Below, piece after piece: positions 159 through 17,974 of a stretch of DNA of 24,632 nucleotides (the stretch's first letter is position 1; the number at the start of each line of letters is the position of its first letter). The DNA comes from Oscillatoria sp. FACHB-1406. GTDB taxonomy: Bacteria; Cyanobacteriota; Cyanobacteriia; Cyanobacteriales; Spirulinaceae. The translations under genes and the position numbers were made by a program. The DNA lies in the NCBI RefSeq assembly GCF_014698145.1, contig NZ_JACJSM010000001.1:1-24632 (forward strand), written 5' to 3'. The notes beneath the pieces were generated by a model that had not been told where the DNA came from, did no database searches, and saw only the letters and a list, made by a program, of their open reading frames with translations.

Positions 159-1871
159 GTGTTGATGTGTCATGGCAAGCAAGCTGGACAATTTACGCCA
201 GAAGATGTTTCGTTTCTACAGTCGATAGCCAATACACTGGCGGCAGCCCTACAGCGAGAAAAAACAGCCGCAGATTTGGCACAAAGTCGCGAACGGCTCG
301 ATCTGGCTCTATATGCGGGCAACATGGGCGTATGGGAGTTTGATATTGCGACTCAGAACACCTCCTGGAACCGGATTGAATACGAACTGCTGGGGTTAAA
401 CCCAGACGACAATCATCCCGCTAATACCGAGGTTTTCTATCGCTATGTCCATCCAGAAGATCGGGAGCGAGTTCAGCAAGAGGTCGATCGAGCGATCGCC
501 CAAAAAACGGAATTTAACAGCGAATTTCGCATTCATCAGGCGAATGGTCAACTGCGCTGGCTAGCGGGCAAAGGCAGAGTCATCACCGATGCAGAGGACA
601 ACGCGATCGAAGTGATTGGAGTGAACTACGACATCACCGAGCGCAAGCAGAACGAAGAAGAATTGCAGGCAGCCGATCGCCGCAAAGACGAATTCCTTGC
701 CGCTTTAGGACACGAACTCCGCAATCCTCTCAATGCTTTAAGTGGCAGCATTGCCTTAATACCCTTGCTCGTGCAATCCTTCCAGGAGCGCGATTGGGAT
801 TTTTCAATGTTCCGCGATCGGATCTTGTCTTTCTATACGATCGCTTGGCGGCAACTCAATCAATTAACCCGGATAGTTGACGATCTGCTGGAAGTCTCGC
901 GAGTAGCCTACGGCAAAATTCAGCTACAGCGTCAGCCCGTCGAACTCACCCAAATCCTGCGAGATTTAAGCCAAGACTACCAAGCTCGTGCCGCAGAAAA
1001 AGGCATCCAGATCGATCTGACGATTTCAGATCGGAAAATTTGGGTTGACGGAGATGCGGTTCGCCTGATGCAGGCTTTCTCGAATATTGTGCAAAATGCG
1101 ATCAAATTTTCTAACTCAGACAGTCAGATTGCGATCTCTATCGCAGTAGAGGCAAACCGAGCCACGATAAAAATTACGGACAGCGGTGTAGGAATCGAGG
1201 CAGAAGCGCTTGCTCGCATTTTCAAGCCCTTCAACCAAGAAAACCGCAGCCTCGCTCGTAATGATGGACTGGGCCTGGGGCTGCCGCTGGCAAAAGGGAT
1301 TATCGATCTGCACGACGGGCAGATTAGCGCAGAGAGCTTAGGGCTAAATCAAGGCACAGAAATCACCATTCATCTGCCCCAAATTGAAGCACCAGAGGGG
1401 GATAGACAGGCCGCTCCCGCGTTCGATTTGCCTTCAGAAAATCAAGAGTCTACCACTGAACGGGGAAAGGTTCTGATTGTTGAAGATGACGAAGACTCGG
1501 CTTTGTTGCTCGAGCTTTCTCTCGAAGAGGCAGGGTATCAAATTGCGATCGCCCGGGATGGACAAACCGGCTTAGCATTAGCCAGACAATTCCAACCCGA
1601 CCTGATTATCAGCGACATCGGTTTAACCAAAGCGATGAATGGCTATGCTTTTGCTAGAGCGATTCGTGCAGACCCCGAACTGAGCCATATTTACCTGATT
1701 GCCGCAAGTGGCTACGGACAGCCAGAAGACAAAGCCAATGCTAAAGCAGCCGGATTTGACGAGCATTTCACCAAACCGATCGACTTCGAGCAACTGCAAA
1801 TTTTTGTTGCCCAGCAATTAGCTCAAATCGATCGTCAGCCCCCAGCATCTTTAGATCGGGGCGATAGTTGA
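159..1871 (+). CDS. Hybrid sensor histidine kinase. It has the tail of a GAF domain, then PAS/PAC, HisKA, HATPase_c, and a C-terminal receiver domain. It appears N-terminally truncated: the ORF opens with GTG inside the last helix of a GAF domain.
   Basis: H-box LGHELRNPLNAL. N/G boxes: NAIKFS, DSGVGI, GLGLGL. Receiver: VLIVEDDEDS ... LIISDIGL ... KP. The N-terminus MLMCHGKQAGQFTPEDVSFLQSIANTLAAAL matches the conserved C-terminal end of GAF domains. An in-frame stop lies at 93-95, so there is no upstream extension. Confidence 0.85.
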   Translation: MLMCHGKQAGQFTPEDVSFLQSIANTLAAALQREKTAADLAQSRERLDLALYAGNMGVWEFDIATQNTSWNRIEYELLGLNPDDNHPANTEVFYRYVHPEDRERVQQEVDRAIAQKTEFNSEFRIHQANGQLRWLAGKGRVITDAEDNAIEVIGVNYDITERKQNEEELQAADRRKDEFLAALGHELRNPLNALSGSIALIPLLVQSFQERDWDFSMFRDRILSFYTIAWRQLNQLTRIVDDLLEVSRVAYGKIQLQRQPVELTQILRDLSQDYQARAAEKGIQIDLTISDRKIWVDGDAVRLMQAFSNIVQNAIKFSNSDSQIAISIAVEANRATIKITDSGVGIEAEALARIFKPFNQENRSLARNDGLGLGLPLAKGIIDLHDGQISAESLGLNQGTEITIHLPQIEAPEGDRQAAPAFDLPSENQESTTERGKVLIVEDDEDSALLLELSLEEAGYQIAIARDGQTGLALARQFQPDLIISDIGLTKAMNGYAFARAIRADPELSHIYLIAASGYGQPEDKANAKAAGFDEHFTKPIDFEQLQIFVAQQLAQIDRQPPASLDRGDS

Positions 1872-2116
1872 CACCAATAAGTAATGCTCTGCCCTAATTG
1901 TGCAAATAGTGCAAAATCAATGAAAACTGGTCTGAGTACAGGAGGAGCGTTTCCGGAGCGCTCCCGCAGGGATCCGCGTAGCGGCACGCATTAAACTCCC
2001 CTCATATTAAATTGGTATTATTAAGGAGCATAAACGCTTGTTCCACCACAGTTTTTCTTAGCTGAAATCTGCTGCCGCTTGCCGTCTAATTTAGGTTTGG
2101 AACTCGCTCAAATTTT

Positions 2117-2962
2117 TTGAGATTAGACAGTCTGATTGATAAAGTCAGTCCGCTTAAGGCTAAAACGGCTGAAGATCGCGAGCCAATTCGACCCGGATAT
2201 ATTTATGTCGCTCCGCCCGATCTGCATATGCTGCTTAAGCCCGGTCATATACACCTGCGTCGCGGGCCGAAAGAGAACCGGCATCGTCCGGCGATCGATC
2301 CCTTGTTTCGCTCGGCAGCAGTCGCGTATCGGGCGCAAGTCGTGGGAGTTGTCCTGACGGGATATCTGGATGATGGTACTTCTGGCTTACTCGCCATCAA
2401 GCGCTGCGGTGGGATTGCTGTGGTTCAAGATCCAGAAGATGCAGATTATCCAGATATGCCCAAAAATGCGATCGCTAAAGTCGAAATTGACTATCAGCTA
2501 CCCATTCACAAGATGGGGAATGTGATTCGTCAAATTGTAGAGCAGCCCGCCCCTGCGATCGACGAAGTTCCCCAAGATATCGTACTAGAAGCTGAAATTG
2601 CAGCACAAACCATGAGCAATATTAGCGACGAGAACCGACTGGGGCATTTAGTACCGGTTAGCTGCCCCGAGTGTGGCGGACCGCTGTGGCGAATCGAGTC
2701 CGATCGCGTGAAGCGCTACCGCTGTCATGTAGGACATGGTTTCACTGCAAAGGCACTGATGGCAGACCAGGATGAGGCTTTAGAGCAAGCGCTGTGGGCG
2801 GCAATGCGAACGATGGAAGAGCGCGCAAATATCGCTTTGGCGATGGCAAAAGATGAAGAAAAACGCGGGCATAGTCGGTCGGCGCAAGCGTATCAAGAGC
2901 AGGCTAAAGTCTCTAAGGCGCACGCTAACGTTATTCGCAAGCTGTTGGTAGAGGGAATTTGA
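2117..2962 (+). CDS. CheB-type methylesterase domain protein, C-terminal half only, followed by a C-terminal zinc ribbon (CPECGG ... RCHVGHG) and a coiled-coil tail. TTG start. Likely a truncated or inactive derivative.
   Basis: GYIYVAPPDLHMLL ... NRHRPAIDPLFRSAA ... GVVLTGYLDDGTSGL ... GGIAVVQD matches the second half of CheB_methylest. The N-terminal half carrying the catalytic Ser (GASTGG) and His is absent. An in-frame stop lies at 2087-2089. No CheB-like coding sequence is found in 1872-2116 in any frame. Confidence 0.6.
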   Translation: MRLDSLIDKVSPLKAKTAEDREPIRPGYIYVAPPDLHMLLKPGHIHLRRGPKENRHRPAIDPLFRSAAVAYRAQVVGVVLTGYLDDGTSGLLAIKRCGGIAVVQDPEDADYPDMPKNAIAKVEIDYQLPIHKMGNVIRQIVEQPAPAIDEVPQDIVLEAEIAAQTMSNISDENRLGHLVPVSCPECGGPLWRIESDRVKRYRCHVGHGFTAKALMADQDEALEQALWAAMRTMEERANIALAMAKDEEKRGHSRSAQAYQEQAKVSKAHANVIRKLLVEGI

Positions 2963-3020
2963 GTCTTTCGGTGGAAAGATTCCGATCTTCTCAAAAAGTC
3001 ATATAGCAGTTTTCACGTGA

Positions 3021-3087
3021 GTGAGGTACACCCAACGGGCGCAAGCCTTGCGCCCCTACCGATTTGATTTTGGAATCCGTACCTCAC
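3021..3087. terminator. Nested hairpin between convergent genes. The outer 9-bp stem is GTGAGGTAC/GTACCTCAC. It encloses an inner GC-rich hairpin GGGCGCA-agcct-TGCGCCC (3037-3055). The inner hairpin is followed by CTACCGATTTGATTTTGG. Candidate bidirectional terminator or structured RNA.
   Basis: Inverted repeats read directly from the sequence. It sits between the stop at 2962 (+) and the stop at 3174 (-). Confidence 0.35.
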
Positions 3088-3173
3088 GCCTATGAAAAAC
3101 GCTATATACTCTTCAAAGCTTAGATTCTTGTCTTGTCGGTATTCGATCGCCTTCCCATACTTCAACGGTTATT

Positions 3174-3662
3174 CTATTGACTCGAGTCTAGCAGTTGCTT
3201 AACCATCAACAGCGATTGCTCCTGGTATCCCAAACGGCGATACAAGCTCAACGCCGGACGATTTTCGCAAAACACTTGCAGCCCGATTTGGCGATCGCCC
3301 CGTCTTCTGGCCCAATCTTCCGCTTTCTGCATCAGCGCCGAACCAATCCCCCGACAGCGATACTCCGGGACGACATAAAGCAGGAAAATATGAGCATAGC
3401 GATCGCCTTCCGCTTGCGCGATTGCGTTTCCCATCCACAAACCCGCAATTTTCGCCCCATACGCCCCCAAACTCGCTCCCGACACCACCCACCACAGTGG
3501 CGTTTCTGAGGAAAAATAACGTTCTACCGTCGTTGCCAGATGGGAGTATTCTTGATTTTCGGGGAATAACTCTTGGTAGCTGCGGGTTAAAAAGCGCAAT
3601 AACAAGGCCCGATCTCTGCCGCAGCCTTCCATAATTTCATAGTCGGGAACTCTAGCGTTCAA
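3174..3662 (-). CDS. GNAT family N-acetyltransferase. The listed TTG start is at 3662. An in-frame ATG at 3632 is an alternative start.
   Basis: Acetyl-CoA binding motif RGIGSALMQKAEDWARRRG, and the C-terminal block ENRPALSLYRRLGYQE. Confidence 0.8.
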   Translation of the reverse strand: MNARVPDYEIMEGCGRDRALLLRFLTRSYQELFPENQEYSHLATTVERYFSSETPLWWVVSGASLGAYGAKIAGLWMGNAIAQAEGDRYAHIFLLYVVPEYRCRGIGSALMQKAEDWARRRGDRQIGLQVFCENRPALSLYRRLGYQEQSLLMVKQLLDSSQ

Positions 3663-3835
3663 CTTTCTGGAATGCTAGAGGGAACTGCTGCCTTTGCCCC
3701 GTCTATCTCCTCAATCGGTGCGGGGGCGGCTAAGTCGGAGGGTAAGAAAATGCGCGCGCTGACCGCTACTAGCGCGATCGCGAAAGTCAGCACAACCAAC
3801 AAAGGGGCAATATACTGGCGGAAAAAAGCCATCAT
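3659..3835 (-). CDS. Candidate small membrane protein, 58 aa: MMAFFRQYIAPLLVVLTFAIALVAVSARIFLPSDLAAPAPIEEIDGAKAAVPSSIPES. It is not in the ORF track because it is below the size cutoff. Its TGA stop overlaps the TTG of the GNAT ORF (TTGA).
   Basis: My own translation of the minus strand. The N-terminal part is predicted to be one transmembrane helix. It sits immediately upstream of, and co-directional with, the GNAT gene. The alternative plus-strand 65-aa ORF 3672-3869 is low-complexity and less protein-like. Confidence 0.3.
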   Translation of the reverse strand: MMAFFRQYIAPLLVVLTFAIALVAVSARIFLPSDLAAPAPIEEIDGAKAAVPSSIPES

Positions 3836-3938
3836 ACGAGGATTTATGCAATCTTTGATCTTCCTCTAGTCTAACGAGCCGCCGGATATATGATAAAAAA
3901 ATAGTATTAACAAATCTTTATAAAACCAGCATAGAGCC

Positions 3939-4841
3939 GTGATACAAGCAACTTCCCCCAGCCTCCAAAACCGTTCAACTTGGAACTGGCAAAACCATCA
4001 AATCCAGTACGCCGTCCAAGGAACGGGCAGCCCTCTACTCTTAATTCACGGCTTTGGGGCTTCTATCGGTCACTGGCGCAAAAATCTTCCCGTCCTCGCC
4101 GCTGCTGGTTATCGCGTCTTTGCCCTCGATCTCTTGGGATTTGGCAACTCCGATAAACCCCTCCTCAACTACACCTTAGACCTGTGGCAGCAACAAATTT
4201 ATGACTTTTGGCAAGAAAAAATACAAGCCCCAACAGTTTTCATCGGTAATTCTATCGGCGGTTTGCTCGCGTTGATGGTAACGGCAAATTTCCCCGAAAT
4301 CGCCGCCGGATGCACGGTTATTAACTGTGCGGGCGGTCTCAATCACCGTCCTGAAGAGTTACCCGCCCCCCTGCGCGCGGTGATGGGAACGTTTACGAAA
4401 GTGGTGAGTTCTCCGCTATCGGGCCCAGTTCTGTTTAACTTAATCCGTCGCAAACCTCAACTACGCCGTACTCTAAGCCAGGTTTACCGCGATCGCGCCG
4501 CCATTACCGAAGAATTGGTGGAAATGCTCTATCAGCCTTCCTGCCATCCCAACGCCCAAAAGGTCTTTGCTTCAATTCTCACTGCACCGCCAGGACCCAC
4601 GCCAGCAAGCTTGCTGCAACGCCTAGAACGCCCGCTGTTGGTAATTTGGGGCGAGGACGATCCTTGGACTCCTCTGGCGGGTGCAAAAGTTTATCGAGAA
4701 TTAGCAGAACGGAACCCAGACGTAACTTTCACTTCTATCCCTAAAGCAGGCCATTGTCCCCACGACGAATGCCCCGATCTGGTCAATGCTTCGCTCCTGG
4801 ACTGGCTTAATAGCGATCGGTTCTCAGTTATCAGTCCTTAA
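3939..4841 (+). CDS. Alpha/beta-fold hydrolase.
   Basis: The HGFGAS oxyanion region, the GNSIGG nucleophile elbow, and a C-terminal GHCPHDE catalytic His region. Confidence 0.8.
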   Translation: MIQATSPSLQNRSTWNWQNHQIQYAVQGTGSPLLLIHGFGASIGHWRKNLPVLAAAGYRVFALDLLGFGNSDKPLLNYTLDLWQQQIYDFWQEKIQAPTVFIGNSIGGLLALMVTANFPEIAAGCTVINCAGGLNHRPEELPAPLRAVMGTFTKVVSSPLSGPVLFNLIRRKPQLRRTLSQVYRDRAAITEELVEMLYQPSCHPNAQKVFASILTAPPGPTPASLLQRLERPLLVIWGEDDPWTPLAGAKVYRELAERNPDVTFTSIPKAGHCPHDECPDLVNASLLDWLNSDRFSVISP

Positions 4842-5125
4842 TGAATGGTGAATAAGGGAAAAGGGATAGCGATCACTCCCTCTCTCCTGCACCAGTCACC
4901 AGTAGCAAGACCCTCTCCCCCTCATCTCCTTCCGGATAGAATGCGGCTTTAATGTAGAGAACTATATTGCTTATCGGCTGCTGACGGGCTAACTGATAAC
5001 GTTCGACTGTTCTGCATCGCGATTGACGGATGACTCCTGATTGTTAACTGTATAACTGATAACTGTTAACACCTAGAGCTATAATCCTGGATGAGGATTG
5101 TGAAGTTAAATGAAGGGCAGCGATC

Positions 5126-6703
5126 TTGCGCTCTCCTGACCTGATGAGGGAGTGCAGCGCGAGGAAAAAGCCGCCGGAAACCGCCCTAAAATTTGTTGGA
5201 TGTGTGAGGTTAAATGTGAGAAATCAAACGGAAGCATTGCCGAGCAATGCAAGAAAGGATTCATCTAAACCCTTGCGTCAAACGCCTCCGAGCCTCGAGA
5301 GCGAAAGCCTTTTGAGTCCGACAGTTCCCAAGCGTCGATCGCGTCTGACTCTCTTCAATATCTTGATGCAGAAGCGAATTTGGCTGTGGAGTAGTACCTT
5401 TGCGATCGCGGTAGGGATTTCTGCGGTATCAGGGGCTGCGATCGGATTATTTGCACCGATTCCCAAAAGCTTCGCCCATTTCGTACCGGGATCGGAAACG
5501 AGCGCCGACGGTAAAGTTCTGGAACATCAAAAACTGTGGGACTTTTTCTTACGTTACGAACTCGATCGCCCCGTTAACATTTTAGTATTGGGGATCGATC
5601 GCGTCCTTGATGCCCAGCCCGGTTCTAAAGAAGCGTTCGACGGTCACAGCGATACGATGTTACTGTTGCGCTTCGACCCCGAAAAGCACGTTCTCCAAAT
5701 GCTCTCCATTCCTCGCGATACGCGCGTGCTTATCCCTGGAGAAGGCATGGTGAAAATCAACGATGCTAATTTCTCTGGCGGTGCCAAACGTGCTACGGAA
5801 GTTGTGAGCGAAACTCTCAATGATATTCCGATCGATCGCTACGTCCGAATTACTAACGATGCGTTTCGCGAACTGGTGGATCTCGTCGGCGGGATTGAAG
5901 TCAATGTTCCCCACGCTATGCAATACCGGGATGAAACACAGCAACTCAATATTAACCTCGCACCCGGACGACAAATTTTAAACGGCGATCGCGCCGAACA
6001 GTTCGCCCGCTTCCGTAAGGATAGTTACGGCGATATCGGGCGCATTCAACGCCAGCAAATTCTGCTCAAAGCACTGCGGGAACGCCTGCAAAGTCCGGCA
6101 ACGTTGCCCCGCCTCCCGCAAGCCGTACAGATGATGCGGCAGTACGTCGATACAAACCTCAGTTGGGAAGAAACGCTCGCGTTAGTCGGTTTTGGGTTGA
6201 AGCTGGAAAAAGAACAAATTAAAATGGTCATGCTGCCCGGTCGGTTCAGCGAGAAGAATGAATTTAATGGCGTGAGCTATTGGTTGATGTCGGAGCGAGA
6301 ACGCGATCGCATCCTTCGTAACAACTTCGACCAACCCGTACCGGGCGAGGAAACCACGAGCGAAAAGACTGAAGCTTCGGAATCGGAGCAAGTCAAACCG
6401 TTACGCGCCCGCATTGCTATCCAAAACACCACCGCCGATCCCGCTGTCGCCGAGCGAGTTCTCGAATATCTTCAAGCTCGCGACATTCGTAACGCTTATA
6501 TCTCCGAGCGCCCCGCCCCGCAAGTCCTCGAACAAACCGAAATTATCGTGCAACAAGGCGATCGCGAAACAGCGAAGCGCTTGCACGCCCTCTTAGGTTT
6601 TGGCAGCATCGAAGACGATTCAACCGGCGATATTGGTTCTCAGTTGACGCTGCGCGTGGGAAGCGATTGGTTGCCAAAACTGGAAGCAGAACCAAGGAAG
6701 TAG
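5126..6703 (+). CDS. LytR-CpsA-Psr (LCP) family cell-envelope protein with a C-terminal LytR_C domain. The N-terminus is uncertain; ATG at 5366 (MQKRIWLW, just before the TM helix) is an alternative start.
   Basis: LCP core: LVLGIDRV ... GHSDTMLLLRFDP ... LSIPRDTRV ... GGAKRATEVVSETLNDIPIDRYVRI ... LNGDRAEQFARFRKDSYGDIGRIQRQQ. A TATAAT box lies at 5079-5084. Confidence 0.8.
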   Translation: MRSPDLMRECSARKKPPETALKFVGCVRLNVRNQTEALPSNARKDSSKPLRQTPPSLESESLLSPTVPKRRSRLTLFNILMQKRIWLWSSTFAIAVGISAVSGAAIGLFAPIPKSFAHFVPGSETSADGKVLEHQKLWDFFLRYELDRPVNILVLGIDRVLDAQPGSKEAFDGHSDTMLLLRFDPEKHVLQMLSIPRDTRVLIPGEGMVKINDANFSGGAKRATEVVSETLNDIPIDRYVRITNDAFRELVDLVGGIEVNVPHAMQYRDETQQLNINLAPGRQILNGDRAEQFARFRKDSYGDIGRIQRQQILLKALRERLQSPATLPRLPQAVQMMRQYVDTNLSWEETLALVGFGLKLEKEQIKMVMLPGRFSEKNEFNGVSYWLMSERERDRILRNNFDQPVPGEETTSEKTEASESEQVKPLRARIAIQNTTADPAVAERVLEYLQARDIRNAYISERPAPQVLEQTEIIVQQGDRETAKRLHALLGFGSIEDDSTGDIGSQLTLRVGSDWLPKLEAEPRK

Positions 6704-6790
6704 TTTGTAATTCGTAATTCGTAGTTCGTAATTCGTAATTCGTAATTCGTAATTCGGATTTCATAACTCATAATTCATCATTCATAACTC
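6700..6790. repeat. Heptanucleotide tandem array, 12-13 units. GTAATTC occurs 6 times plus the variant GTAGTTC, then degenerate units GGATTTC, ATAACTC, ATAATTC, ATCATTC, ATAACTC. It starts at the LCP stop codon and ends 19 nt before the ATG of the pentapeptide gene.
   Basis: Units delineated by hand from 6707 in exact 7-nt register. It resembles cyanobacterial STRR-type heptamer repeats but does not match STRR1-3 consensus sequences. Confidence 0.9.
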
Positions 6791-6808
6791 ATCTGTTGAA
6801 ACGAGAAA

Positions 6809-7318
6809 ATGGGAAAAACGTTAGTTGAGAGAGGGCGGGGGTTAATTGCAATTATAGTGCTGGCGCTGCTGTGGCTGTTATTAACGGCAATGCCTGCGAT
6901 CGCGCAAGATAAAACCGTCAATTATACCCAAACCGACTTGCAAGGGCGGGACTTTTCGGGGGAAGACTTATCCAAAGCAGTTTTCGCGGCTGCTGACTTG
7001 CGCGAAGCCAACTTGGAGCGATCGGATTTAAGCGGCGCTATTCTTACGAAAGCCGTGTTGTTCAAGGCAAATTTAAAAGATGCGAACTTATCCGGCGCGC
7101 TCGCCGATCGCGTCACTTTCGATGCAGCCAACCTCGAAGGCGCAATTTTTACCGATGCGGTAGCGACCCGAACGCGCTTTTTCGATGCTGAAATTACGGG
7201 AGCGGACTTTTCGGGGACGATTCTCGATCGCTACCAAGTGAGTTTGATGTGCGATCGCGCTGCGGGAACGAATCCAGTAACGGGAATCGCCACGCGAGAA
7301 AGTTTGGGATGCGATTAA
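6809..7318 (+). CDS. Secreted pentapeptide-repeat protein, Rfr / thylakoid-lumen type, with an N-terminal signal peptide.
   Basis: Signal peptide [23 protein letters not shown], followed by consecutive A(D/N)LxxANLxx pentapeptide repeats. Confidence 0.85.
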
Positions 7319-7740
7319 AATTTCCCAGACAATCCCGCTAAAGTGATGGCGCGATCGATAAACATTATCGCCTGCTCTGGCTGACCTATTTCGGCTAAGT
7401 CGCTGGCACTTTCTGCGAAGGCTAACGCTTGCTGTTGCTGACTTTCCAAACCCTCGATCGCTTGCAAGGCGCGATCGATTTTGCCAGTTTCAATTAAAGT
7501 CGGTGCAATTGAAGATAACGCCTTTGCACTCCACGGTTCAGATCTAAAGCGTTGAATCAGTTGTAGGGCGCGATCGTATTGTCCTACCTTGGCAAGAGCG
7601 ACGGCAATCGCTGATACGACTTCAGAGTTTAGTGCATTGGCGGGGACGGGAGAAAGGGGGTGTTGCACGAACAGCAAGGGAGAAGCCAGCTTTCCCGACG
7701 CAGTTTGTTCGATTACTGGGGCTGCATTCGCTCCGGTCAC
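7315..7740 (-). CDS. TPR-like repeat protein, probably exported. The listed GTG start falls inside what looks like a signal peptide that is split across two reading frames, so the true start is probably at 7816. See findings.
   Basis: Three helical repeats of the form G(Q/K)xDRALQxI. Upstream in-frame sequence encodes [23 protein letters not shown] before the GTG. The ATG at 7816 opens MQCPLAAFLTHT in the +1 frame. Confidence 0.55.
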
Positions 7741-7890
7741 AGCAAAGAGGCTGAGAGTGGCGAACAGAACAACAAGAGGGTGTGTGAGTTAAAAAAGCCG
7801 CGAGCGGGCATTGCATTCTTCACAAATTTTTGCAAAGGTTATTGACGGGGGGACTATCCCCCTCCAATTGTCGTGGTATTAATACTGTCT

Positions 7891-8619
7891 ATGATAGACT
7901 CCAATACACAATCGATTCGAGAAACGGCATCGGATGAGATAGCGGCTCTGCGCCAGCAACTCTTCTGCGAGCCAGAAAAAAAACAACTGACCTTGCTTGA
8001 TAAACTCGCCAGTTTCGGGGATGAAGGACTGAGCGCGATCGCAGAATTTTTGCAAGCGAGCGATCGCAACTCCCCCACCCCCGCCCTTGGCAAAGCCGAA
8101 CTCTTGCTGCTCGCTGCCGATACGCCGCAAACCCGAACCTTTTTAGAAACCCATTTTCCCGATGGGATTGTCCCCCTTCACTCCGAGCAAAACATCGATT
8201 GCAGTCCGATAGCGCGCGCTCTGCGCGAACAAGACTTCCTGAACGCCGACCGCCTCACCCTCGAAAAACTCTGCGAACTCGTCGGTCCAAGTGCCATCCA
8301 GCGCAAATGGCTGTTCTTCTCCGAAGTCGAGAAAATTCCGATCGCCGACCTACGCGCGATCGATAGCTTGTGGCGCGTATATTCCGAAGGAAAATTCGGC
8401 TATTCCGTCCAGCGCGAAATCTGGTTGGCGCAAGGGAAAGATTTCGGCAAGCTCTGGTCTAAAATTGGCTGGAAAACCGACAAAAACTGGACGCGCTACC
8501 CTAACGAATTTATTTGGAATGTCAGCGCGCCGCGAGGTCATTTACCCCTCTCAAACCAACTGCGCGGCGTTCGGGTTATTGCTAAGTTGTTTGACCATCC
8601 TGCCTGGTCGGTAGATTGA
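7891..8619 (+). CDS. GUN4-domain protein (Ycf53-like, Mg-chelatase regulator family). ATG at 7891 is preferred over the GTG at 7873.
   Basis: GUN4 core motifs: DLRAIDSLWRVYSEGKFGYSVQREIW and RGHLP. Confidence 0.75.
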   Translation: MIDSNTQSIRETASDEIAALRQQLFCEPEKKQLTLLDKLASFGDEGLSAIAEFLQASDRNSPTPALGKAELLLLAADTPQTRTFLETHFPDGIVPLHSEQNIDCSPIARALREQDFLNADRLTLEKLCELVGPSAIQRKWLFFSEVEKIPIADLRAIDSLWRVYSEGKFGYSVQREIWLAQGKDFGKLWSKIGWKTDKNWTRYPNEFIWNVSAPRGHLPLSNQLRGVRVIAKLFDHPAWSVD

Positions 8620-11119: not shown

Positions 11120-11259
11120 AAAGGCTATTGCAAAATCTGAAATTTACGCTTTAAGTAAAATTCTTGAGAGTTTGACCTTGACAATGTGGAATTGTAGAGG
11201 GTGAGTTTAAAAGCAGCGGTACGAGTATCGCTGCACCTCGTAATTCTGTTTTATGAGCA

Positions 11260-16394: not shown

Positions 16395-17096
16395 TTAAAC
16401 CGCTAAGAAACGTTGAATCGTTTCTTGAGAGAGTTCGCTAGTTGCGCCGGAAGCAACGATACCGCCTTTTTGCATGGCGTAATACCAGTCCGCTTGGCGC
16501 ACGAAATGGAGGTGTTGTTCGACGAGTAAAACAGAGATTCCGGTTGCTTCGATAATGCGTCGGACAGCGGCTTCAATTTCAAGAATAATCGAGGGTTGAA
16601 TCCCTTCGGTGGGTTCGTCGAGAACGAGAAGCTTGGGTTTCCCCATTAAAGCACGCGCGATCGCGAGTTGTTGTTGTTGTCCGCCGCTCAAATCGCCGCC
16701 CATCCGCGATAGCATTGTTTTCAACACCGGAAACAGCGTAAAAATCTCTTCTGGAATATCTTTTTTCCCCTGTCTTCCTTTCGGTAATGCTTCCAAACCC
16801 AGCAACAAATTTTCGCGAACCGTGGCGCGGGGAATAACTTCTCTTCCTTGGGGAACGTAACCGATTCCGGAGCGCGCGCGGCGATCTGGGCTATCTTTTA
16901 AGAGGGAGCGATCGTAAAAAACAATATTACCAGTACGCGGCTGAAGTAAGCCCATAATTGTTTTTAAGAGTGTCGTTTTTCCGACTCCATTTCTCCCGAT
17001 TAAGCAAACCATTTGTCCCGGCGGAACAGCCATATCGACACTGCGAAGAATATGACTTTCGCCGTAATAAACATTGAGGTTAGAAACTTGTAACAT
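16395..17096 (-). CDS. urtE: Urea ABC transporter ATP-binding protein UrtE (LivF-like).
   Basis: Walker A GRNGVGKT, signature LSGGQQQ, Walker B LLVLDEP. It is the last gene of the urtABCDE order. Confidence 0.8.
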   Translation of the reverse strand: MLQVSNLNVYYGESHILRSVDMAVPPGQMVCLIGRNGVGKTTLLKTIMGLLQPRTGNIVFYDRSLLKDSPDRRARSGIGYVPQGREVIPRATVRENLLLGLEALPKGRQGKKDIPEEIFTLFPVLKTMLSRMGGDLSGGQQQQLAIARALMGKPKLLVLDEPTEGIQPSIILEIEAAVRRIIEATGISVLLVEQHLHFVRQADWYYAMQKGGIVASGATSELSQETIQRFLAV

Positions 17097-17123: not shown

Positions 17124-17227
17124 AGCGGAAATCTGTAATTCGTTGTCAATTATCCATTTGCTCTGGCGGAACAGCCATATCGACACTGCGAAGAAGCGGG
17201 AATCCGTAATTCGTTATCAATTATCAA
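17124..17227. repeat. Two ~33-bp direct repeats bracket a 42-bp duplicate of part of the urtE coding region. R1 (17124-17156) is AGCGGAAATCTGTAATTCGTTGTCAATTATCCA. R2 (17195-17227) is AGCGGGAATCCGTAATTCGTTATCAATTATCAA. The duplicated segment is 17154-17195 and copies 17009-17050 (urtE codons 16-30).
   Basis: Read directly. R1 and R2 differ at 4 of 33 positions. The duplicated segment differs from its source at 3 of 42 positions, with the last 31 nt identical. R2 ends at the urtD stop codon. Confidence 0.8.
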
Positions 17228-17974
17228 TTAACTTTCTTCACTGCCTAAATAAACTTCAATCACGCGCGGATCTTGCTGTACTTCATCCATCGTGCCTTCA
17301 CACAGAACGGAACCTTGATGTAATACAGTTACTTTACGAGCGATTTGGCGCACGAACTCCATATCGTGTTCGATCACGATAATTGAATGACTTTCCGCCA
17401 GCGCAATTAATAAAGCCCCTACGTTTTCTGTTTCCTCGTCGGTTAATCCGGCAACGGGTTCATCAACTAACAGTAATTGCGGCGATTGTGCGACTAACAT
17501 TCCGATTTCCAAGCGCTGTTTTTCGCCGTGGGAAAGGAGGGCAGCTTGTAAGTCGGCTTTCGCGGCTAAACCAATCGTTTCAAGGAGTCCGATAACGTGG
17601 CGGCGATCGCTTTCTCTCGGCTGGGCAAAGAGCGTGCTTAACACATTTTTGTTGCGATTGCAAGCCAAGTCTAAATTTTCGCGCACGGTGAGATTGAGAT
17701 AGACTCGCGGGGTTTGAAATTTACGACCAACTCCGAGGCGGGCAACTTGATGTTCGGACAATTTTCGCAAGTCTCGCCCGTCAAATCTAACCTGTCCTTC
17801 CGTGGGTTTGGTTTTGCCGGTAATGACATCGAGAAAGGTCGTTTTTCCCGCACCGTTGGGGCCGATAATCGTGCGGAGTTCGCCCGCATCCATACTGAAG
17901 TTAAGGTTATTGATGGCTTTAAATCCATCAAAGTTAACGGTGAGATTATCGATTTCGAGAATTTTTGAGGTCAT
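17228..17974 (-). CDS. urtD: Urea ABC transporter ATP-binding protein UrtD (LivG-like). The true start is the ATG of MTSKILEIDNL. The listed ORF runs 35 codons further upstream, to a TTG at 18079.
   Basis: Walker A GPNGAGKTT, signature LSHGEKQRL, Walker B LLLVDEP. An AAAGGATAATAATG ribosome-binding context precedes the start. Confidence 0.8.
   Translation of the reverse strand: MTSKILEIDNLTVNFDGFKAINNLNFSMDAGELRTIIGPNGAGKTTFLDVITGKTKPTEGQVRFDGRDLRKLSEHQVARLGVGRKFQTPRVYLNLTVRENLDLACNRNKNVLSTLFAQPRESDRRHVIGLLETIGLAAKADLQAALLSHGEKQRLEIGMLVAQSPQLLLVDEPVAGLTDEETENVGALLIALAESHSIIVIEHDMEFVRQIARKVTVLHQGSVLCEGTMDEVQQDPRVIEVYLGSEES

What the first reader, a model, noticed from the sequence alone, without database searches (positions are those of the whole stretch)
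6700..6790. GTAATTC heptamer tandem array in the promoter/5'UTR of a secreted pentapeptide-repeat gene
Twelve to thirteen tandem heptamers decay from perfect GTAATTC units into ATAACTC/ATAATTC variants. They begin at the LCP stop codon and end 19 nt before the pentapeptide gene ATG. Heptamer arrays are known in heterocystous cyanobacteria (STRR), but this unit is not one of the classical STRR sequences. Copy-number change would alter promoter-to-start spacing for the downstream gene. The same GTAATTCGT core recurs in the urtD-urtE spacer repeats and, partially, at 11238-11247 (CGTAATTCTGTT).
Basis: seen in the sequence. Interest (0 to 1): 0.5.

Follow-up and report, generated by a model that had tools for sequence, protein, structure and literature searches.

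The report
Heptamer microsatellite between two cyanobacterial genes
The 91-base run of 7-base repeats is real, but it is an ordinary "STRR-type" heptamer microsatellite that fills the gap between two neighbouring genes of a filamentous cyanobacterium, and nothing suggests it is a promoter switch.

Summary
The array exists exactly as described: 13 in-register heptamers at 6700-6790. The stop codon of the LCP (LytR-CpsA-Psr cell-envelope) gene lies in unit 1. The last unit ends 19 nt before the ATG of the pentapeptide-repeat protein (PRP) gene.

It is two juxtaposed arrays rather than one decaying array: (GTAATTC)x8, then a 21-nt-period ATAACTC-ATAATTC-ATCATTC array.

The source is Oscillatoria sp. 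FACHB-1406, which is not heterocystous.

GTAATTC is not a classical STRR unit, but it is not rare. Exact (GTAATTC)3 occurs in more than 120 stretches of reference genomes and 47 viral-collection stretches. Same-composition control heptamers gave 2-5.

Orthologous LCP-PRP spacers in 11 lineages carry the same unit (1), other heptamers (5), an octamer (1), or no array (3, spacers of 28-161 nt). The gene therefore does not need this sequence.

No sigma-70-like promoter, terminator or stable RNA structure is predicted.

Most likely this is a tolerated, slippage-prone intercistronic spacer. The closest relative differs in a way most simply read as one unit.

The "recurring core" elsewhere in the window is at chance level.

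It is a new member of a known kind, of low to moderate interest. How the same unit comes to be seeded at many sites and in several phyla remains open.

The parts
6700..6755 (+). Array 1: eight units of the GTAATTC family (GTAGTTT, GTAATTC x2, GTAGTTC, GTAATTC x4). It has a higher-order 21-nt period. TAA or TAG occurs in every unit, so all three + frames are closed.
   Evidence: in-frame stops every 21 nt
6701..6703 (+). TAG stop codon of the LCP gene. It lies in unit 1, in the same phase as the TAA of the following units.
   Evidence: same arrangement in relative L001
6756..6762 (+). Junction unit GGATTTC, with 2 mismatches to GTAATTC, between the two arrays.
6763..6790 (+). Array 2: ATAACTC-ATAATTC-ATCATTC-ATAACTC, a composite unit with a 21-nt period. 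It is a distinct dispersed family, not decayed GTAATTC.
   Evidence: TRF row 6761-6792. It is 26/28 identical to L002 3017-3044 in a non-homologous spacer. Exact (ATAACTC)3 occurs in 17 viral-collection stretches.
6791..6808 (+). Unique 18-nt leader ATCTGTTGAAACGAGAAA, with a purine-rich Shine-Dalgarno-like GAGAA before the ATG.
   Evidence: read from the sequence; function inferred
5126..6703 (+). LCP (LytR-CpsA-Psr) family gene. The longest ORF is 525 aa; the database protein P0001 is 476 aa and 100% identical.
6809..7318 (+). Pentapeptide-repeat protein gene, 169 aa, with a signal-peptide-like N-terminus ([34 protein letters not shown]). It is identical to P0121 of Oscillatoria sp. FACHB-1406.

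Best explanation
This is a compound heptanucleotide microsatellite of the cyanobacterial STRR / long-simple-sequence-repeat kind. It occupies 91 of the 105 nt between two co-oriented, syntenically conserved genes of Oscillatoria sp. FACHB-1406: an LCP cell-envelope transferase and a signal-peptide-bearing pentapeptide-repeat protein (PRP). It consists of two juxtaposed arrays. Array 1, (GTAATTC)x8, supplies the LCP stop codon. Array 2 has a 21-nt period (ATAACTC-ATAATTC-ATCATTC) and ends 19 nt before the PRP start. Both units belong to families that recur at many loci in many genomes. Once present, the array changes length by slipped-strand mispairing in multiples of 7 nt (inferred from the comparison with L001). 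At this locus it most likely has no sequence-specific role. It is a tolerated, 70% A+T, unstructured, stop-rich spacer that is probably transcribed with the LCP and PRP genes, as an intercistronic region or leader. It is not a switch that sets promoter spacing. Shown: the anatomy, the distribution of the unit, the lack of conservation of the sequence among orthologous spacers, and the absence of predicted promoter, terminator or structure. Inferred: co-transcription, slippage as the mechanism of change, and neutrality.
For: Anatomy.
Source and gene context. LCP-PRP-GUN4-GAF/HisKA synteny is conserved in relatives.
Orthologous LCP-PRP spacers in 11 lineages:
- same unit in L001
- CAGTAAT in L002
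- GGAATAG plus CAAAATC in L170
- TCATTAG plus GACAAAG in L174, and TTGTTAG plus ACTATCC in L175
- GTTTTAR plus GACCAAT (the STRR2-type unit) running into the ATG in L388
- an octamer in Lusitaniella L172
- no array in L171 (28 nt), L177 (49 nt) and L390 (161 nt)
Heptamer arrays are common in these genomes. 16 of 56 spacers carry one. Period 7 dominates TRF output in the fetched loci even without the selected unit.
Unit difference between lineages: the GTAGTTC variant is unit 4 in the window and unit 3 in L001. The higher-order period is 21 nt in the window and 14 nt in L001.
No promoter-like or terminator-like site in 6300-7000. No terminator in three orthologous spacers.
The spacer RNA folds less well than shuffles, z = +1.9.
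Rfam finds nothing.
Literature: 7-bp STRRs lie between co-transcribed hupS and hupL, including in non-heterocystous Lyngbya (PMC2670836). Heptanucleotides are the most abundant long SSR class and are attributed to polymerase slippage (Mrazek 2007 as summarised in PMC4679880). Heptamer repeats sit 0-50 bp after, or overlap, stop codons on the coding strand (PMC4692102).
Against: The unit is not random. Exact (GTAATTC)3 is about 10 times commoner than three same-composition control heptamers in the viral collection: 47 stretches against 4, 5 and 2.
This particular spacer carries a period-7 array in 7 of 11 lineages, against 12 of 50 other spacers. Fisher p = 0.03, or 0.05 if the window and L001 are counted once.
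In cyanobacteria these arrays begin at a stop codon far more often on one strand: 22 against 5. Slippage alone does not explain that.
Reporter work in Nostoc suggests heptamer repeats can modulate expression of recF and recO (bioRxiv 10.1101/2022.06.06.494920).
A weak -10-like CATAAT (6769-6774) lies inside array 2. Cyanobacterial promoters often lack a -35 element, so an internal promoter is not excluded.
There are no transcript data, and the rest of the source genome could not be scanned.
Confidence: 0.65

Rival explanations
1. The array is a cis-regulatory repeat. The tandem heptamers would be multiple binding sites, on RNA or DNA, for a trans-acting factor such as an S1-, Csp- or CsrA-like single-strand binder or an unidentified DNA-binding protein. 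That factor would tune translation, mRNA stability or transcription of the flanking genes, as part of a genome-wide heptamer network.
For: The unit is specifically enriched: 47 stretches against 2-5 for the controls. It recurs across phyla. Arrays sit at gene ends with a strand bias. The modal length is 32-34 nt in cyanobacteria, 31 of 65 arrays. MacGregor 2015 proposes this for TAACTGA repeats. Pradhan 2022 reports effects of heptamer deletion at recO.
Against: Orthologous spacers use unrelated units or none, so no conserved site serves this gene pair. The array is separated from the ATG by 18 unique bases that include the likely ribosome-binding site (RBS). No binding factor is known for any cyanobacterial heptamer. 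More than 70 different heptamer units form arrays in the sampled cyanobacterial loci, which would need many factors or a non-specific one.
Confidence: 0.15
2. The array is a contingency locus. Unit-number changes in a promoter or 5' UTR would switch or grade expression of the secreted pentapeptide protein. The model is the (ATCTTTC)n repeat upstream of Haemophilus influenzae hmw1A.
For: The array is of a slippage-prone kind and lies upstream of an exported protein gene. L001 differs from the window in a way most simply read as one unit. The precedent is a heptameric SSR in the hmw 5' UTR (PMC12721329).
Against: No promoter-like site is found. A 91-nt array cannot sit between a -35 and a -10 element. 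Internal unit changes do not alter the sequence adjacent to the start codon. The hmw mechanism needs a long repeat-containing hairpin cleaved by RNase III, whereas this RNA is less structured than shuffles. Relatives run the same gene pair with a 28-49 nt spacer. Rehm 2015 found that genes next to heptamer repeats are not enriched for surface or adaptation functions.
Confidence: 0.07
3. This concerns origin rather than function. The GTAATTC array would have been seeded here by insertion or copying of a preformed array of a dispersed, quasi-mobile heptamer family, not by slippage of local sequence. Slippage would then only have resized it.
For: The same unit is found at many loci and in several phyla. 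In Dolichospermum L164, 33-nt and 54-nt copies lie in-frame inside a methylase gene and a helicase gene. The methylase insertions sit at five separate sites and are absent from more distant orthologues. Array 2's 21-nt composite recurs 26/28 identical at a non-homologous spacer in L002. Further small elements are nested inside arrays.
Against: No transposase, target-site duplication or defined termini were identified. In some orthologous spacers the unit looks locally derived: in L170 the GGAATAG repeat is the last 7 nt of the gene. Convergent emergence of A+T-rich, stop-containing units is not excluded. The three control heptamers are a small sample.
Confidence: 0.3
4. The array is an assembly artefact, with a collapsed or chimeric repeat in the draft genome.
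For: Short-read contigs of two relatives end inside the arrays, which shows that assemblers struggle here.
Against: The same array, starting at the same stop codon, is present in an independent assembly from another sample (L001). The array contains variant units that anchor it, and at 91 nt it is shorter than typical reads. Only the exact unit count could be uncertain.
Confidence: 0.02

Closest known systems
STRR (short tandemly repeated repetitive) sequences of filamentous cyanobacteria, e.g. the array between hupS and hupL
   Same: Both are head-to-tail 7-bp units, intergenic, often between co-oriented or co-transcribed genes. Several unit families coexist per genome and their function is unknown. 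Transcript stability or translational coupling has been suggested (PMC2670836).
   Different: The unit GTAATTC is not STRR1, STRR2 or STRR3 (CCCCAGT, TTGGTCA, CAACAGT; recalled from Mazel et al. 1990, canonical forms compared). The host is Oscillatoriales, not heterocystous. The hupS-hupL STRR can form a hairpin, and this array does not.
Heptanucleotide long simple sequence repeats (Mrazek et al. 2007, as summarised in PMC4679880)
   Same: Both are arrays longer than chance, with 5-11 nt units. Period 7 is the dominant class, the arrays are mostly non-coding, and they are attributed to polymerase slippage. Period 7 also dominates in the loci fetched here.
   Different: That is a statistical class with no unit specificity. 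It does not explain the roughly 10-fold excess of this unit over same-composition controls.
TAACTGA direct repeats of Beggiatoaceae, Cyanobacteria and Bacteroidetes (MacGregor 2015, PMC4679880)
   Same: Both involve one specific A+T-rich, stop-containing heptamer that recurs as intergenic arrays in Cyanobacteria and Bacteroidota, with no known transfer mechanism. Indels come in 7-nt steps between strains, and contigs end in the repeats. In the viral collection TAACTGA gives 107 stretches and GTAATTC 47.
   Different: The unit is different. In the Beggiatoaceae genome BOGUAY the repeats lie within a few nt of start codons. Here the array starts on a stop codon and is 18 nt from the start. GTAATTC is also found in Acidobacteriota, Chloroflexota, Planctomycetota and others.
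GGGGA(C/T)T / GGGAATC quadruplex-forming heptamer repeats of Nostoc and Xanthomonas (Rehm 2015, PMC4692102)
   Same: Both are genome-wide intergenic heptamer arrays that prefer the spacer between co-oriented ORFs. [quoted passage not shown] GTAATTC arrays show the same stop-codon adjacency and a 32-34 nt mode.
   Different: There are no G-tracts, so no quadruplex is possible. The shared preference for 4-5 units therefore cannot be due to G4 formation in this family.
Haemophilus influenzae hmw1A (ATCTTTC)n phase-variable 5'-UTR repeat (PMC12721329)
   Same: Both are heptameric SSRs upstream of a gene for an exported protein, and the unit number can change by slippage.
   Different: The hmw repeat is in a mapped 5' UTR, forms a long hairpin with a G-rich arm, and is cleaved by RNase III. 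Here there is no mapped TSS, no predicted promoter and no stable structure, and relatives lack the array.
Heptamer repeats upstream of recF and recO in Nostoc PCC 7120 (bioRxiv 10.1101/2022.06.06.494920)
   Same: Both are contiguous heptamers next to start codons in a filamentous cyanobacterium. The recO unit GAC(C/T)AAT is the unit that fills the orthologous LCP-PRP spacer in L388 and runs into the PRP ATG.
   Different: That work deleted the repeats and saw modest reporter effects. Nothing of the kind is available here, and the unit differs.

Membership tests
STRR (cyanobacterial short tandemly repeated repetitive sequences) | Head-to-tail tandem repeats with a 7-nt unit | tested here: met
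   13 in-register units; TRF period 7, 11.6 copies, score 99
STRR (cyanobacterial short tandemly repeated repetitive sequences) | The unit is one of the classical STRR1/2/3 sequences (CCCCAGT, TTGGTCA, CAACAGT; recalled from Mazel et al. 1990) | tested here: not met
   The canonical form of GTAATTC is AATTACG and that of ATAACTC is AACTCAT. The STRR units give ACTGGGG, AATGACC and AACAGTC.
STRR (cyanobacterial short tandemly repeated repetitive sequences) | The same unit is dispersed as arrays at many loci of the genome | tested here: inconclusive
   There is only one GTAATTC array of 3 or more units in the 24.6-kb window. The rest of the source genome could not be reached. The unit is multi-locus in other genomes, e.g. 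9 arrays in 8 kb of L164 and several contigs of Fortiea, Desmonostoc and Nostoc. Array 2's composite recurs at another locus in L002.
STRR (cyanobacterial short tandemly repeated repetitive sequences) | The host is a heterocystous cyanobacterium (original definition) | tested here: not met
   The source is Oscillatoria sp. FACHB-1406, Oscillatoriales. STRRs are, however, also reported in Lyngbya.
Heptanucleotide long simple sequence repeat (LSSR) | Unit of 5-11 nt and an array longer than expected by chance in that sequence | tested here: met
   12 GTAATTC in the window against 3.5 +/- 1.9 in shuffles, 0 of 100 shuffles reaching 12; TRF score 99
Heptanucleotide long simple sequence repeat (LSSR) | Non-coding location; length changes in whole units between relatives | tested here: met
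   The array lies between the LCP stop and the PRP start. The variant unit is shifted by one unit in L001, most simply a one-unit indel, and the higher-order period is 14 nt there against 21 nt here.
Phase-variable SSR / contingency locus (hmw1A type) | The repeat lies in the mapped promoter or 5' UTR of the regulated gene | tested here: inconclusive
   There are no TSS data. No sigma-70-like promoter is found in 6300-7000. Co-transcription with LCP is plausible, since there is no terminator and the spacer is 28 nt in L171.
Phase-variable SSR / contingency locus (hmw1A type) | The repeat-containing leader folds into a long hairpin that RNase III processes | tested here: not met
   MFE is -15.7 kcal/mol against a shuffle mean of -21.7, z = +1.9
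Phase-variable SSR / contingency locus (hmw1A type) | Unit number varies within populations and sets the expression level | not testable with these tools
   This needs long-read or amplicon data and expression assays. Only a between-lineage difference was seen.
TAACTGA start-codon-proximal repeats (MacGregor 2015) | The unit is TAACTGA | tested here: not met
   The units are GTAATTC and ATAACTC/ATAATTC/ATCATTC. A separate 2-unit TAACTGA repeat lies at 5052-5065 upstream of LCP.
TAACTGA start-codon-proximal repeats (MacGregor 2015) | The repeats lie within a few nt of the start codon and overlap the ribosome-binding region | tested here: not met
   18 unique nt, with a GAGAA purine run, lie between the array and the ATG
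G-quadruplex-forming heptamer repeats (GGGNATC type) | Each unit carries a G-tract of 3 or more, so that four units can form a G4 | tested here: not met
   No unit has more than two consecutive G, and the array is 70% A+T

The most novel reading that the evidence does not exclude
(GTAATTC)n would not be a by-product of local slippage. It would be the footprint of an active, unit-specific seeding process, a quasi-mobile 'heptamer cassette' or a template-copying mechanism, shared by Cyanobacteria, Bacteroidota, Acidobacteriota, Chloroflexota and others. The cassette would be deposited preferentially at stop codons, on opposite strands in cyanobacteria and in the other phyla. It would have a preferred size of about 33 nt and could enter coding sequences in frame. 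The array at 6700-6755 would then be one insertion of this element, later expanded. The evidence does not exclude this. The unit is about 10-fold enriched over composition-matched controls. There are five independent in-frame insertions in one methylase gene. There is a strand and stop-codon bias (Fisher p = 9e-5). The modal length is 32-34 nt.
Probability: 0.2. Interest if true: 0.65.

Novelty: new member of a known kind. Interest (0 to 1): 0.3.

Why it matters
For this locus it matters little. The array is a typical intergenic heptamer microsatellite, and it should not be annotated as a promoter element or as a regulator of the pentapeptide gene.

It is useful as a marker. Locus-specific unit counts could type strains, and such arrays explain contig breaks in short-read assemblies of these cyanobacteria.

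The wider pattern it belongs to is an old open question: why specific heptamers form arrays at gene ends in filamentous cyanobacteria and in unrelated phyla. The data gathered here sharpen that question in three ways:
- GTAATTC is a recurrent family about half as common as the described TAACTGA family in one collection.
- It shares the stop-codon adjacency and the 4-5 unit preference previously ascribed to G-quadruplex formation, although it cannot form one.
- It can sit in frame inside genes.

Tried and rejected
Source genome. Exact-product look-ups for the window's PRP, LCP and a cation-efflux protein found no contig. In one search I trimmed the wrong end of a minus-strand gene.

Strain comparison. 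No PRP orthologue closer than 75% identity is in the protein database apart from the source itself. The only near relative is the truncated contig L001.

Contig ends. Three short-read contigs stop inside the arrays (L001, L002, L389). I considered reading this as evidence of within-sample length heterogeneity and rejected it. The final k-mers still contain unique sequence, so the cause cannot be inferred.

Structure. I tested a hairpin, terminator or RNase III-type model. The RNA is less stable than shuffles and the DNA fold is unremarkable, z = -1.6.

Known RNAs. Rfam at gathering thresholds finds nothing in the whole window.

Promoters. The consensus scan finds none in 6300-7000. Scans of three orthologous spacers give chance-level hits and no terminators.

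Minus-strand ORF 6543-6764 (73 aa). It runs through the array because GAATTAC has no stop in any frame, and it lies antisense to the LCP 3' end. I treated it as a by-product and did not test it by homology.

Literature. No paper in the library prints GTAATTCGTAATTC or its complement.

PDB. A sequence search for the L164 methylase gave no hit.

Lusitaniella. Its repeat was first read by eye as a heptamer. TRF shows period 8.
Full report
**1.
Positions 6700-6790 hold 13 heptamers in one register. They are GTAGTTT, GTAATTC x2, GTAGTTC, GTAATTC x4, GGATTTC, ATAACTC, ATAATTC, ATCATTC and ATAACTC.
- Tandem Repeats Finder reports period 7, 11.6 copies, 85% matches and score 99. It also reports a 21-nt higher-order period over 6700-6756 (94%, score 100).
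- GTAATTC occurs 12 times in the window against 3.5 +/- 1.9 in dinucleotide-preserving shuffles.
- The upstream ORF 5126-6703 carries LytR_cpsA_psr and LytR_C domains. The downstream ORF 6809-7318 is a pentapeptide-repeat protein (PRP).
- The PRP N-terminus has basic residues, a long hydrophobic stretch and AIA/QD, as a signal peptide would (read from the sequence, no predictor available).
- The LCP stop TAG (6701-6703) lies inside unit 1, in the same phase as the TAA of later units. The last array base is 19 nt before the ATG.
- Read in the LCP frame, the array gives a stop every 21 nt. All three forward frames are closed, whereas the reverse strand (GAATTAC) has no stop at all.

**2.
The 3' part is not a decayed GTAATTC array.
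- Units 10-13 (ATAACTC-ATAATTC-ATCATTC-ATAACTC) form a 21-nt-period composite.
- This composite recurs 26/28 identical at L002 3017-3044. That is a non-homologous spacer next to an acetyltransferase gene, in a relative whose LCP protein is 66% identical.
- Exact (ATAACTC)3 is itself recurrent, with 17 stretches in the viral collection.
- The spacer therefore holds two different arrays side by side. Orthologous spacers of L170, L174, L175 and L388 show the same layout.

The "same core elsewhere" is at chance level.
- GTAATTCGT at 17135 and 17206 lies in two copies of one 35-nt direct repeat in the urtD-urtE spacer.
- Single GTAATTC heptamers outside the array number 6 against about 3.5 expected, including the one at 11240.

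**3. Source and context.**
- The LCP and PRP proteins are 100% identical to proteins of Oscillatoria sp. FACHB-1406. This is an Oscillatoriales strain, not a heterocystous one.
- The window has 41 HIP1 palindromes (GCGATCGC) against about 1 expected. It also carries GUN4 and a urea ABC-transporter operon. All of this fits a cyanobacterium.
- The order LCP-PRP-GUN4-GAF/histidine kinase is kept in relatives whose LCP is about 60% identical. LCP-PRP adjacency persists down to about 41% LCP identity.

**4. The unit is common, not exotic.**
- Exact (GTAATTC)3 is found in 47 stretches of the viral-contig collection.
- About half of those stretches are cyanobacterial: Nostoc, Calothrix, Anabaena, Dolichospermum, Fortiea, Nodularia, Scytonema, Stigonema, Planktothrix and Oscillatoriales.
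- The rest include isolates of Chitinophaga, Flavobacterium, Pontibacter, Algoriphagus and Vibrio sagamiensis. They also include metagenome-assembled genomes (MAGs) of Acidobacteriota, Chloroflexota, Planctomycetota, Ignavibacteria and candidate-phylum bacteria.
- Three control heptamers of identical base composition gave 4, 5 and 2 stretches in the viral collection. The published TAACTGA repeat gave 107.
- The sampled loci are rich in heptamer arrays generally. After removing the selected unit, period 7 still outnumbers every other period, and more than 70 different units occur in each group of loci.
- No paper in the searchable library prints this unit as a repeat. The unit appears undescribed, but the kind is not.

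**5. The gene pair does not need this sequence.**
I collected the LCP-PRP spacer from 11 lineages.

| Lineage | Spacer content |
|---|---|
| Window | GTAATTC array plus ATAACTC-type array, 105 nt |
| L001 (LCP 88% identical) | Same GTAATTC array on the same stop codon |
| L002 | CAGTAAT, with the TAA stop inside the array |
| L170 | GGAATAG (a duplication of the gene's last 7 nt) plus CAAAATC at the start |
| L174 | TCATTAG x7 plus GACAAAG x8 |
| L175 | TTGTTAG x8 plus ACTATCC x8 |
| L388 | GTTTTAR x3 plus (GACCAAT/GACTAAT) x14, the classical STRR2-type unit, running into the ATG |
| Lusitaniella L172 | An octamer |
| L171 | No array, 28 nt |
| L177 | No array, 49 nt |
| L390 | No array, 161 nt |

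The position is often occupied, but the sequence is not conserved. Heptamer arrays are frequent in these genomes: 16 of 56 spacers of 30 nt or more carry one. The excess at this spacer is only modest. It is 7 of 11 against 12 of 50 (p = 0.03), or p = 0.05 if the window and L001 count once.

**6. Evidence for length change.**
- In the window the variant unit GTAGTTC is unit 4. In L001 it is unit 3. The flanking coding DNA aligns without gaps.
- The higher-order period is 21 nt in the window and 14 nt in L001.
- The simplest reading is gain or loss of whole units since the two lineages split (inference).

**7. No sign of a promoter switch.**
- A consensus scan finds no sigma-70-like promoter and no intrinsic terminator in 6300-7000.
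- No terminator lies in three orthologous spacers.
- The spacer RNA folds less well than shuffled versions, z = +1.9. Rfam finds nothing.
- A 91-nt array cannot lie between -35 and -10 elements. Because it is periodic, gaining or losing an internal unit leaves the sequence next to the start codon unchanged.
- The only documented heptamer switch of this type is hmw1A of H. influenzae. It depends on a long repeat-containing 5'-UTR hairpin cut by RNase III, and nothing comparable is predicted here.
- A -10-like CATAAT at 6769-6774 inside array 2 cannot be excluded as a weak promoter (read from the sequence, untested).

**8. Best explanation.**
The feature is a compound STRR-type heptanucleotide microsatellite. 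It is tolerated in, and largely constitutes, the intercistronic or leader spacer of a probably co-transcribed LCP-PRP pair. It changes by slippage in 7-nt steps and has no sequence-specific role at this locus. I put confidence at about 0.65.

Published descriptions fit this reading.
- Heptanucleotides are the dominant long SSR class.

**9. What slippage does not explain.**
I used crude ORF calls (100 aa or longer) around 137 (GTAATTC)n arrays.
- In cyanobacteria, 22 of 65 arrays begin within -12 to +24 nt of an ORF's stop codon on the GTAATTC strand, against 5 on the other strand.
- In the other phyla the bias is reversed, 7 against 20 (Fisher p = 9e-5). Often the stop codon is the array's own first TAA.
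- The window array follows the cyanobacterial rule.
- Array length in cyanobacteria peaks at 32-34 nt, in 31 of 65 arrays, rather than declining from the 21-nt minimum.

In Dolichospermum L164, nine arrays lie in 8 kb.
- Seven lie inside two long ORFs, an Eco57I/MmeI-type methylase and an SNF2 helicase. There they read GAATTAC, are 33 or 54 nt long, and are translated as NYELRITNYEL.
- An alignment of 20 orthologous methylases shows these segments to be lineage-specific insertions at five separate sites.
- One site lies between LEFPEVF and GFDCVLGNPPW. Some sites carry further nested insertions.

The same unit appearing five times in one gene argues that arrays of this family can be seeded by copying or inserting a preformed array. 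That is the most novel reading left open (probability about 0.2). Some non-independence among related genomes, the rough ORF calls and the small number of control heptamers limit these side results.

**10. Verdict.**
The STRR-like classification is right. The claims of an unusual unit, a decaying array, a recurring core and promoter spacing are not supported. This is a new member, with an undescribed but widespread unit, of a known kind of repeat. Interest is 0.3.

Noticed in passing
L164 1-8000 (Dolichospermum sp. ST_sed8, JAKOGY010000182.1); ORFs 420-4460(-) and 4927-7896(-): Nine (GTAATTC)n arrays lie in 8 kb. Seven lie in frame (33 or 54 nt) inside an Eco57I/MmeI-type methylase gene and an SNF2 helicase gene and are translated as NYELRITNYEL. 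Orthologue alignment shows five separate lineage-specific insertion sites in the methylase, some with nested extra insertions. A one-unit change would frameshift the methylase, so this is a possible phase switch of a restriction-modification gene.
   Followed up: partly
Loci L050-L169 (one search hits): (GTAATTC)n arrays abut ORF stop codons with opposite strand preference in different groups. The counts are 22:5 (GTAATTC strand: other strand) in cyanobacteria and 7:20 in other phyla. The modal array length in cyanobacteria is 32-34 nt. The 4-5 unit preference resembles that reported for G-rich heptamers, although this unit cannot form a quadruplex.
   Followed up: partly
L058, L060, L064, L071, L076, L110, L117 and others (Acidobacteriota, Chloroflexota and Bacteroidota MAGs): Pairs of arrays in inverted orientation, (GAATTAC)n ... 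(GTAATTC)n, lie a few tens of bases apart and would form long hairpins.
   Followed up: no
window 17009-17050 vs 17154-17195, and 17124-17158 vs 17195-17229: The urtD-urtE spacer contains a 93%-identical copy of 42 nt from the 5' coding end of urtE, flanked by two copies of a 35-nt direct repeat. This is a local duplication. It is the source of the two extra GTAATTCGT matches.
   Followed up: partly
window 5045-5070 (and 4989-5001): The spacer upstream of the LCP gene holds a short TAACTG(T)A array that includes two exact TAACTGA units, the heptamer described by MacGregor 2015. Relatives carry other heptamers in the same upstream spacer: GATAACT x5.9 in L001, AATCCAA x3.6 in L002 and TTTTAGA x3.1 in L170.
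   Followed up: partly
L002 3017-3058: The array ATAACTC-ATAATTC-ACCATTC-ATAACGC-ATAATTC-ATCATTC overlaps the TGA stop of a minus-strand GNAT acetyltransferase gene. It is the same 21-nt composite as window 6763-6790 but at a different locus, which is evidence that this composite is a dispersed family in the clade.
   Followed up: partly
L388 1797-1917 and L389 1-25: The orthologous LCP-PRP spacer is made entirely of GTTTTAR x3 plus about 14 GACCAAT/GACTAAT units, the STRR2-type unit also found at Nostoc recO. The PRP ATG lies in the last unit. A second assembly of the same gene starts inside this array.
   Followed up: no
L001 end (1859), L002 end (6489), L389 start: Three short-read contigs of relatives terminate inside the LCP-PRP heptamer arrays within 16-29 nt of the gene end. 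Such arrays are likely break points in k-mer assemblies.
   Followed up: no
Nostoc loci L054, L103, L119, L127, L141, L148: GTAATTC arrays in Nostoc are often interrupted or followed by short GC-rich hairpin-like inserts, e.g. ...CGTAAT-gacgctcctacggacgctcg... and actcgccaaaggcgagaagcaagc. These resemble the small dispersed repeats described in Nostoc punctiforme (recalled from Elhai et al. 2008, not checked). In the methylase they are translated as VSEALPKGAL-type segments.
   Followed up: no
window, 41 sites: The HIP1 palindrome GCGATCGC occurs 41 times against about 1 expected, the usual cyanobacterial signature.
   Followed up: yes
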